A stretch of 64,000 nucleotides of DNA from Felis catus. Lineage: Eukaryota. The DNA is taken from assembly GCF_018350175.1 (NCBI RefSeq), contig NC_058378.1, forward strand, positions 87,482,001 through 87,546,000. Direction: 5' to 3'. Made by a program: the position numbers and the translations under genes. The notes under the pieces are model-generated. The model was not told the DNA's origin and searched no databases. It saw nothing but the letters and a program-made list of their open reading frames with translations. Position 1 is the stretch's first letter. Each line of letters begins with the position of its first letter. Positions 44,080-46,990 of the stretch are shown one piece after another.

Positions 44080-46990
44080 GGGCAGCCTTCGCAGGGGGCA
44101 GGGCTTGGAGCCCCCGCCCGCGGTCTGGGCCCCACGGGCTGCAGGGCGGGTTGGGGGGCGGACGGGGGGCTGCCCCCGCGGGCCCCCCCCCCCGCCCCGC
44201 CGCAGCGAGCGGAAAGCGGGCCCTGTGGGTTTTCGCGCCACCACCAGGCGAAGCGGAGTGTCGGGGACGCCGCGCAGTCGGTCCAAACGGGGGACCGTCC
44301 TCTTCCAGTTCACTCGGCGCCCGATTCCCGAGTTAACCCTGCTGGTGGGAAAGCAGCAGGCTGGGCCGCGCGGGTCCCTCTCATCCCGCCTCCTCAGACG
44401 CGCCCCGCGGGCTCCCCCACCCCGGCCGAGCGCCCTCGCGCGCACCCACCCCCACACGTGGACCCCACGCACGCCCCCAGACAGTAGTTCACCGCAGGCT
44501 GCTGGGCGCGCCCTACGAAAACCGTAAGTGTGGGGGGTCCCTAAAGTGGGCGTGCGGGTTTCCATGTGGTCGGGACGGCACCAGACCTCATCCGGGGACG
44601 TAGCTGGTGAGTTTCACCTAAAGGCCCTGGCTCCAAACTGTCTGCCCCGCGGTTCGGGCCTCAGTCTCGTAGCCAGTTCTGAGCGCCCTGCTGCCCGGGT
44701 TAGGGGCGCAGGAGCGCGCCACGGAGTAAACCCCACGACGCCTCACGGTTTGCACAAAACGGGAAGCTCCGAGGGCGCTGCACGAAACCATTCACCGCTT
44801 TTCACGGAAGTGTGGGAGGCACGGGGTTTTTAACCCCCGTTTTAAAATGTGTGTAAGGTGCCCACGAGTGCGCTCGAGGCATCGGTCATCACGTGTATCG
44901 ACGACGGGGGAAACACAAAAACGGAAAAATGAGACACAAAGGCACCGGAGGCTCCGGGAGGCCACCCAGGGCCGAGTTCCGCGCCCGGACGGACGCGGCG
45001 GGCGCGCTGGCGCTGGGACCCACGTCGCAGCCCCCCGTTGCCCTAGGACAGGTAATACATGCGGTAGGCAGCGACGGGCGCGGCGACGAGTCCTGGCGCC
45101 TGCGGCGGGGAGCCCGCTGCGCCCGCGTACGCGGCCGGGGGGCCGGGCAGGGGCGCGCCCAGGGCGAAGGAGGGCAGCAGCGGCTTGGCCGCCAGCTTCA
45201 GCTTCTCCAGCTCGGCCTCCTGCAGCCGCTTGGCCTTGGCGCGGCGGTTCTGGAACCAGATCTTGACCTGCGTCTCGCTGAGGCTCAGGCTGCTGGAGAA
45301 CTCGGCGCGCTCGGCCACCGACAGGTACTGCTTCTGGCGGAACTTGCGCTCCAGCGCCAGCAGCTGCGCGGTGGTGAAGGGCGTCCGCGGCTTGCGGTTG
45401 GTCCTGTGCTTTCGGAGGGCGCAGGGCGGAGGGCTGGGGGCGCCTGGGAGGAGAGACAAGCACAAAGCGGATGCTCCGACGCCAGCAGCGCGCGCCCCTT
45501 GCCCACGCTTCCGAACCCCGGCAGAGCCCGGTTAGGCGTGCCGGTCGCGGCTCTCAGGCACGACGAGACCCAGAAAGCGCTGGGGTAAGAGAGGCAGGCC
45601 TCAGGGGGACGGGGCGGGGAGCCCTGGACTCGGGGTCTGCCCTCCAGGGAGGGGGGACCGTGCTCACTCCGAGAAGCGAGGGGCTTGGGCGGGAGGCGGC
45701 CGCAAGAACTGAGCGGCGAGCACTGGGGAGAGGAGTTGGCGAAGCGGGAATTAACCGTCGCGGGGACGGACGGGGGCGGGGGGCGCTGGCGCCGGAAAAG
45801 CTCTGAGCCAAGAAGCCGCGGGTTCAAGGGCTTCGGGCTCCGCGTCCGGATTGGCGCGCGCGAGGGGGCCCGGGTGGGTTCGGTCTTTTCTTTGCGCGCA
45901 GGCCAGGCGCGTTAGTGGCCACTTGGCGAAGTTAGGGGTGCCGGCGGCCTTTCCACCCTCGTCCTCCCAGCGCGGGCCGGGGCGGGGGCTCTCCTGGCTG
46001 CCTGGGACCGAGAGACAGGGCACTTACGTGGGGAGGACGAGCGGGCGGCCGGCGGGAACCAGGCCCAGGGCTCCGCGGTGCCCCGTGGCCTCTCCTCCCG
46101 GGGCTCGGTGGGCCCCGCGTCCAGCCCGCGCTCCGCCTCCAGCAGCGACTCGACGCTGAAGGGCAGCGGGCCGGGCCCCGCGCGCCCCCCGCCGAACGTC
46201 TGGAGCCCAGCGGGGTTCATGCTGAGCGACGCCGGGGCCATGCGCCGTCAGGCGGGCGCAGGGCTGGCGAGGCCCGGCCGGCGCGCCGAGAAGGTGGCTC
46301 GCGGCGCGATCGACCCGGGCTTGGCGGCACCCCCGCCCGCGGAACCCTATAAGAAGGCGGTGCCCCTTTCATGCGCCGTCATCCAATCGCCGCGGCCGCT
46401 GCCGCGCGAGCCTGGGTGTCCATTGGCTTCGCTGACCTGGGAGGGCCGAAGGGACAGGCAGGGGTGGGCCCGCCTCCTGGGACCCAGTGCCCCTGTCCCG
46501 CTCCCAGCGCCCGCCAGCCTCTCCCGGAGCTCTGCGGGCCGGGCCCGCGCTCCTCCGGTCCGGGAGGTGGCGGAGGCACCCCGGGGAGCTCGTGGAGCTG
46601 GCCTCGGCTCCCCCACCCGGAGGAATCGACGACGGGCGCGGCGTCGGTGGACCTGGCGTGGGAACACCGGCCTTGACCGCGCGCGGTTCCTGCGAGGCTG
46701 AGCGCGCGGCGCCATCAGAGGCGGGGTCGGCCCCGTGGCTCCCCCGCCGCTCTTCTGCTGCGCCCCAGCCGGGATTTGGAACCCTGGGTCCTCTCTCCGA
46801 ACCCTGGGGGCCGCGTAGGATGGACCCGAACCCGGACTGGCGACTCTGCTTCCGTCCCCTTGAAGTCGCCTTGGCCCTGGGTGGCTTTTCAGGCACCTGT
46901 AGCTGCTTAGCACCCTCCCGGGCAGGGGCCGCCCGTCGTGCTGCCGGAGTGTCCCACGGCCTGGGCTTAGGAGCCGCCATCGGTGCCGGT
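44080..46990. promoter_or_regulatory. Large CpG island spanning MSX3; TATA-like element at ~46347-46353 and CCAAT boxes at 46383-46387 and 46422-46426
   Basis: Dense CpG; ccctataagaa, atccaatc and cattggc upstream of the ATG. Confidence 0.7.
45043..46241 (-). CDS. MSX3: Homeobox protein MSX-3, 2 exons (46241-46028, 45443-45043), 204 aa
   Basis: eh1 motif FSVESLL; Msx homeodomain [68 protein letters not shown]-terminal MYYLS. GTAAGT donor and CAG acceptor in phase 1. Position beside ZNF511 matches rodent Msx3. Confidence 0.93.

What the first reader, a model, noticed from the sequence alone, without database searches (positions are those of the whole stretch)
45043..46241. Intact MSX3, a homeobox paralogue humans lack, in a carnivore genome
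Seen: an uninterrupted 204-aa two-exon ORF with eh1 motif, full Msx homeodomain, canonical splice sites and a CpG-island promoter. Known: Msx3 is characterised mainly in rodents (dorsal neural tube) and human has only MSX1 and MSX2. Inference: MSX3 is functional in this felid lineage, which constrains where the gene was lost.
Basis: partly seen in the sequence, partly recalled or inferred. Interest (0 to 1): 0.7.

Follow-up and report, generated by a model that had tools for sequence, protein, structure and literature searches.

The report
Ordinary intact MSX3 gene in cats
This is an intact cat-family copy of MSX3, a developmental control gene that humans lack; it is already annotated in public databases and kept by many other mammals, so it is ordinary, and it likely acts as a gene repressor in the embryonic nervous system as in mice, although no transcript of it was found here.

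Summary
In detail: a two-exon, 204-aa, stop-free ORF on the minus strand with a GT-AG intron, eh1 motif and Msx homeodomain, inside a CpG island. It is MSX3 by tree and by neighbours. It is not new. The protein is identical to the RefSeq entry 'homeobox protein MSX-3-like' of domestic cat and other felids. Orthologues are annotated in bears, seals, mustelids, horse, pig, whales, bats, rodents, tree shrew, afrotheres, marsupials and echidna. The primate loss was already inferred in print from rodents, pig and horse (PMC3141429), so a felid copy adds nothing there. It only confines the reported dog loss to the canid branch. Purifying selection within felids is modestly supported (0 of 7 changes in motifs, p=0.014). 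Expression was not shown. Side leads: no MSX3 protein was found for canids, eared seals, hyenas or primates although their VENTX is held; many MSX3 orthologues are misnamed VENTX; felids share a 4-aa deletion. The scan had no earlier MSX3 note.

The parts
46028..46241 (-). MSX3 coding exon 1 (aa 1-71; alternative in-frame ATG at 46220)
   Evidence: 100% match to felid proteins
46134..46169 (-). eh1 / MH1N motif [12 protein letters not shown] (predicted Groucho/TLE-binding)
   Evidence: 0-2 changes of 12 against 10 other mammalian MSX3; function by resemblance per PMC2655272 section 5
45444..46027 (-). Single intron, 584 nt, GTAAGT...CAG, phase 1
   Evidence: same phase in models of both paralogues; splicing not seen in reads
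45043..45443 (-). MSX3 coding exon 2 with stop codon TAG
45400..45423 (-). N8 stretch before the homeodomain (CALRKHRT)
   Evidence: domain definition from PMC2655272
45220..45399 (-). Msx homeodomain (aa 87-146); differs from the Msx majority only by I28V and T41S
45181..45219 (-). MH5 core [13 protein letters not shown] (repression region)
45160..45165 (-). Approximate point of a felid-shared in-frame 4-residue deletion in the LPF(P/A)L stretch
   Evidence: missing in 9 of 9 named felid proteins checked, present in meerkat, panda, seal, mink
45046..45066 (-). C-terminal MH6 motif YRMYYLS (predicted PIAS-binding)
44000..46999 (.). CpG island over the whole gene and its upstream region
7480..8719 (-). 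Synteny marker: ADAM-type disintegrin and reprolysin exons (ADAM8 by position; name from PMC2655272 and recall)
18073..20604 (-). Synteny marker: gamma-tubulin complex component exons (TUBGCP2; name recalled)
35337..35402 (+). Synteny marker: C2H2 finger exon (ZNF511; name recalled, Pfam score below cut-off)

Best explanation
The locus is the intact felid orthologue of MSX3, the third vertebrate Msx gene, already annotated in RefSeq, and it likely still works as a homeodomain transcriptional repressor in the embryonic dorsal nervous system. Shown: intact frame, splice signals, CpG island, MSX3 ancestry, conserved neighbours, and conservation concentrated in the eh1, homeodomain and MH5 motifs. 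Inferred from the family: the homeodomain binds TAAT-type sites (R5, I47, Q50 and N51 are unchanged; their role is recalled), the single eh1 motif recruits Groucho/TLE co-repressors, MH5 adds repression and MH6 binds PIAS proteins. Inferred from mouse: expression in dorsal neural tube and cerebellar ventricular zone, inducible by BMP. Not shown: any felid transcript or protein.
For: Frame and splice sites. Three Msx-grade loci among 87 homeodomain matches in this genome (150 of 207 candidates scored), each near a Calcyon-family gene (45 kb, 0.41 Mb, 0.51 Mb). Tree of 45 rows: sister to meerkat (92/88), in carnivorans (100/98), in mammalian MSX3 (100/99); MSX1+MSX2 separate (98/85); grouping with MSX1/2 rejected, p-AU 0.0047. 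Identical to P0121, 'MSX-3-like' of Felis catus and Panthera onca; six other named felid proteins differ by 1-2 residues. 0 of 7 within-felid variable sites fall in the 93 motif residues, p=0.014; motif regions are less diverged than the rest at p<0.05 in 7 of 9 pairwise comparisons. Mouse expression and repressor role: PMC11089253 passages, PMC2655272 section 5.
Against: No splice joint in the 4 runs laid (of 24 listed); the 7 pieces lie in the intron, across the donor site unspliced, or upstream, as genomic DNA would. No AATAAA or ATTAAA on the coding strand within 2 kb of the stop. Felid-stem changes are not significantly depleted in motifs (2 of 8, p=0.21). Felid MSX3 is not significantly less variable than neighbouring VENTX (7 of 204 against 16 of 250 sites, p=0.20). 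The Iberian lynx model is frameshifted after the homeodomain (P0168) and the leopard model is flagged LOW QUALITY. Felids have lost 4 conserved residues.
Confidence: 0.85

Rival explanations
1. The frame is open but the gene is silent or under relaxed selection in felids, on its way to loss as in primates and apparently canids; redundancy with MSX1 and MSX2 would allow this.
For: No transcript seen. 20 of 24 placental MSX3 homeodomains differ from the Msx majority by 1-6 residues, while two marsupials, four bats and this genome's MSX1 differ by none. Camel, pig, sea otter and Iberian lynx models lack the normal C-terminal motif. Felid 4-aa deletion.
Against: The same 204-aa protein is recorded for Felis and Panthera; 0 of 7 felid changes are in motifs; the CpG island is intact; the runs laid are of unknown tissue and low depth.
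Confidence: 0.12
2. The gene is a copy of MSX1 or MSX2, or its homeobox has been gene-converted by MSX1.
For: The homeobox shares a 67-nt exact stretch with this genome's MSX1, dS only 0.22, and 64 of 74 comparable codons are identical against 47 expected from whole-gene codon use. Mammalian MSX3 has A11 and S39 like MSX1, where most non-mammalian MSX3 has S11 and N39.
Against: Tree and AU test; separate MSX1 and MSX2 loci exist. Other GC-rich homeobox pairs of this genome reach nearly the same third-position identity (25 of 29 and 21 of 25, against 27 of 30), so shared G+C bias and ancestry can explain it; an excess over the pooled null remains (p 0.003-0.016).
Confidence: 0.02
3. The gene is VENTX, as NCBI names many of its orthologues.
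For: 11 of 48 exon-1 hits carry VENTX as first name; a 2024 paper repeats the Msx3-VENTX orthology from NCBI's pipeline (PMC11089253).
Against: True VENTX lies 65 kb away on the same contig (L029:9509-9898, 97% identical to jaguar VENTX). All 7 VENTX-named rows placed in the tree fall in the MSX3 clade, with homeodomains 0-4 residues from the Msx majority. Walrus, beaver, camel, horse and felids have both genes.
Confidence: 0.01

Closest known systems
RefSeq 'homeobox protein MSX-3-like' of felids (P0121: XP_023096932.1 and others)
   Same: Identical 204-aa sequence.
   Different: Nothing; it is an automatic annotation. No paper holding both 'MSX3' and 'Carnivora' was found.
Mouse Msx3 (P0035)
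   Same: Same clade, same length of 204 aa, eh1 0 of 12 and homeodomain 3 of 60 differences; linked to Calcyon and Adam8 (PMC2655272).
   Different: Linkers about half diverged (20 of 36, 16 of 35). Felids lack the LPFP-type tetrapeptide; mouse has a separate 5-residue gap further on. Expression is shown in mouse, not in cat.
MSX1 and MSX2 of this genome (C11, 303 aa; C1, 267 aa; the MSX2 label is recalled, no database name was attached)
   Same: Homeodomain 2 and 4 of 60 differences, phase-1 intron, a Calcyon-family neighbour.
   Different: Separate clade; much longer N-terminal parts; MSX1 has a second eh1-like motif that the window gene lacks.

Membership tests
Msx homeobox family | Msx-type homeodomain (MH4) with N8 stretch | tested here: met
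   56 of 58 identical to the Msx-1 homeodomain 1ig7; PF00046
Msx homeobox family | N-terminal eh1/MH1, MH5 and C-terminal MH6 motifs | tested here: met
   alignment; definitions from PMC2655272 section 5
Msx homeobox family | Two coding exons with a phase-1 intron before the homeobox | tested here: met
   (splice models, not reads)
MSX3 orthology group | Groups with mouse and rat Msx3 and fish MSH-C, not with MSX1/2 | tested here: met
   (p-AU 0.0047); the whole MSX3/MSH-C clade has 89/95 support
MSX3 orthology group | Linkage to Calcyon and Adam8 (10q26-type paralogon) | tested here: met
   linkage stated in PMC2655272
MSX3 orthology group | Second Groucho motif (MH1C) absent | tested here: met
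   one eh1-like motif in the 204-aa protein; by eye, no motif model run
MSX3 orthology group | Expression in dorsal neural tube and cerebellar ventricular zone | tested here: inconclusive
   4 runs of unknown tissue, no splice joint
MSX3 orthology group | Transcriptional repression, Groucho and PIAS binding | not testable with these tools
   inferred from motifs only
Functional protein-coding gene in felids | Purifying selection (dN/dS below 1) | tested here: inconclusive
   no orthologous DNA available; protein proxy p=0.014 within felids, p=0.21 on the stem, p=0.20 against VENTX
VENTX | Vent-type homeodomain and C-terminal part | tested here: not met
   true VENTX is a separate gene 65 kb away

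The most novel reading that the evidence does not exclude
MSX3 is a repeatedly disposable developmental regulator in placental mammals: besides primates it was lost independently several times inside Carnivora (canids, eared seals, hyenas, badger) and in ruminants, and is eroding in pigs, camels and pangolins, while felids kept a version with a lineage-specific 4-residue deletion. The pattern has gone unseen because the gene has no human reference and is often misnamed VENTX.
Probability: 0.4. Interest if true: 0.4.

Novelty: already known. Interest (0 to 1): 0.17.

Why it matters
Little as stated: retention of MSX3 outside primates is in print and the felid gene is in RefSeq. Two by-products have modest value. 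First, a presence-absence map of MSX3 across mammals would offer natural knock-outs of a dorsal neural regulator; felids, bears, true seals and weasels keeping it means any canid loss is recent and separate from the primate loss. Second, the VENTX label on MSX3 orthologues is an annotation error that has reached at least one paper and can mislead orthology-based studies of either gene.

Tried and rejected
RNA evidence: one search listed 24 runs, 20 holding the stretch and 2 of these on record as RNA. Four were laid on 45390-46450; no joint was found and the pieces look like genomic DNA. Orthologous DNA for dN/dS: the metagenome scan kept 80 loci of 384 relatives, none a mammalian MSX3 (best 72-86% identity). 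MSX1-to-MSX3 gene conversion: the first null was too loose; other GC-rich homeobox pairs come close to the same identity, so it is not supported. VENTX as a rate control: not significant (that script stopped on an error in its last step, after printing the numbers used). The Atlas look-up of the VENTX exon gave no result. Rfam: 0 matches in the window. A 940-aa open frame listed was not found in the window (longest 472 aa). PMC6605213 (MSX3 in microglia) is not held; it was seen only as cited in PMC8888930. Literature searches: MSX3+Carnivora 0 papers; Msx3+gene loss+mammals 4 papers, 3 listed; Msx3+VENTX 5 papers, 4 listed; none of the 25 listed of 67 holds msx3; some searches gave background only. 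Subscription journals are not searched and no supplements were opened, so genome-wide gene-loss tables may already list MSX3 status.

Full report
Observation. The finding is accurate. On the minus strand, exon 1 (46241-46028) and exon 2 (45443-45043) are separated by a 584-nt phase-1 intron with GTAAGT and CAG ends and give a 204-aa protein with no internal stop; a second ATG gives 197 aa. The protein has an eh1-type motif at aa 25-36, a homeodomain (PF00046, E 2.9e-22) with 56 of 58 residues identical to the solved Msx-1 homeodomain, and the MH5 and MH6 motifs defined in PMC2655272 (section 5 read). A CpG island spans about 44000-47000, the whole gene.

Identity. A search of the own genome with exon 2 gave 87 homeodomain matches (150 of 207 candidates scored). 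Three are Msx-grade: the window, C11 (80%) and C1 (73%); the next best has E 5.6e-17. Splice models give 303 aa and 267 aa for the other two (a phase-1 and a phase-2 model were possible for each and the phase-1 one was used). Each of the three lies near a Calcyon-family gene. Around the window gene the order is VENTX (65 kb away), a CH_2-domain gene and an ADAM gene, a gamma-tubulin complex gene, a C2H2 gene, the Msx gene, then the Calcyon gene 45 kb on. The names TUBGCP2, ZNF511, CALY and MSX2 are recalled; linkage of Msx3 to Calcyon and Adam8 is stated in PMC2655272 (passages). The tree had 45 rows: 38 database proteins hand-picked about one per lineage from some 295 fetched, 3 own-genome Msx proteins and 4 metagenome outgroups, 208 of 438 columns kept. 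It places the window protein with meerkat (92/88), in carnivorans (100/98) and in mammalian MSX3 (100/99), apart from MSX1 and MSX2. The tool warned of long outgroup branches. Forcing the gene together with MSX1 and MSX2 is rejected (p-AU 0.0047).

Already known. The protein is identical to P0121, named 'homeobox protein MSX-3-like' for Felis catus and Panthera onca; its 90% cluster has 12 members, 9 named, all felids. The exon-2 search (1289 hits, best 120 listed), the exon-1 search (48 hits of 142 candidates, all listed) and cluster listings show MSX3 in bears, true seals, walrus, weasels and mink, sea otter, meerkat, pangolins, horses, rhinos, whales, camels, pigs, bats, rodents, tree shrew, afrotheres, sloth, marsupials and echidna. 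Zhong and Holland 2011 (PMC3141429, passages and Table 2 seen; its correction read whole) list Msx3 as present in mouse, rat, pig and horse and absent in human, chimpanzee, macaque, cow and dog, and conclude loss in primates. Finnerty et al. 2009 include opossum Msx3 and the primate loss. A felid copy does not move the primate boundary.

Is it functional? Probably, but it is not shown directly. For: the same protein in two felid subfamilies; 0 of 7 variable sites among seven felid sequences fall in the 93 motif residues (p=0.014); motifs are less diverged than linkers at p<0.05 in 7 of 9 pairwise comparisons with other mammals. Against or neutral: felid-stem changes 2 of 8 in motifs (p=0.21); no significant difference from VENTX (p=0.20); a frameshifted Iberian lynx model and a LOW QUALITY leopard model; no canonical poly(A) hexamer within 2 kb. 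dN/dS could not be computed because no orthologous DNA was obtainable. Four of 24 listed runs were laid on exon 1, the intron and the first 54 nt of exon 2; none shows a joint and the 7 pieces look like genomic DNA. Their tissues are unknown, so this says nothing either way.

Mechanism. Most likely it is a conventional Msx repressor. The homeodomain differs from the family majority only by I28V and T41S, away from the residues recalled as base contacts. The eh1 motif would recruit Groucho/TLE, and MH5 and MH6 would add repression and PIAS binding (assigned by resemblance in PMC2655272). In mouse, Msx3 is confined to the dorsal CNS and marks the cerebellar ventricular zone, and BMP can induce it (PMC11089253, passages); a role in microglia is cited in PMC8888930 (passage). 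The same role in felids is inference.

Side results. (a) No MSX3 protein named for a canid, eared seal, hyena, badger, primate, ruminant or lagomorph appears in the lists. True VENTX, 65 kb away, is held for dogs, foxes, raccoon dog, three eared seals, two hyenas, badger and many primates. There is no such control for ruminants or lagomorphs. These are absences from annotation, limited by query-length windows and by the lists shown, not proven losses; the dog loss is in print. (b) 11 of 48 exon-1 hits are named VENTX; the 7 VENTX-named rows placed in the tree are MSX3, and one paper repeats this orthology. (c) All 9 named felid proteins checked lack four residues of the conserved LPF(P/A)L stretch, which meerkat keeps; slippage between two short repeats is a guess. 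(d) Placental MSX3 homeodomains vary more than those of marsupials or this genome's MSX1, which suggests relaxed constraint in several lineages. (e) Unusual codon identity with MSX1 is approached by other GC-rich homeobox pairs and is not taken as gene conversion.

Verdict. Real, correctly identified, already annotated and expected from the literature. Interest is low (0.17). The one bolder reading left open is repeated independent loss of MSX3 across placental mammals (probability about 0.4), which needs genome alignments that could not be run here.

Noticed in passing
L029:9509-9898 (G000:C22:87461509-87461898, +): Last exon of true VENTX, 65 kb from MSX3; shows that the many MSX3 orthologues named VENTX by NCBI are misnamed.
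   Followed up: yes
window 716-1894 (-): Exons of a CH_2-domain (sperm flagellar SPEF1-like) gene between VENTX and the ADAM gene. It may be the gene called Spef1l in mouse (recalled); its status in human was not checked.
   Followed up: partly
window 45206-45386 against L002: 67-nt exact match and 27 of 30 third-position identity between the MSX3 and MSX1 homeoboxes; matters for read cross-mapping; conversion not supported.
   Followed up: yes
P0043, P0173, P0169, P0168 (camel, pig, sea otter, Iberian lynx MSX3 models): C-terminal motif replaced, apparently by frame changes; real erosion or assembly and annotation error.
   Followed up: partly
window 46383-46387 (+) and 46422-46426 (-): Two CCAAT pentamers and a weak TATA-like word near 46348, upstream of the ATG; not tested against chance.
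   Followed up: no
window 8621-8818, 12643-12812, 25545-25625: Perfect tandem repeats: 97 nt x2, 15 nt x11.3, 40 nt x2; the 97-nt pair lies in the ADAM gene region and could be a recent duplication or an assembly slip.
   Followed up: no
P0046 and other amphibian proteins: An axolotl protein named 'MSX-2-like' and a caecilian 'MSH-C' fall in the MSX3 clade, so amphibians likely keep MSX3, though the 2011 table scores frog as absent.
   Followed up: partly
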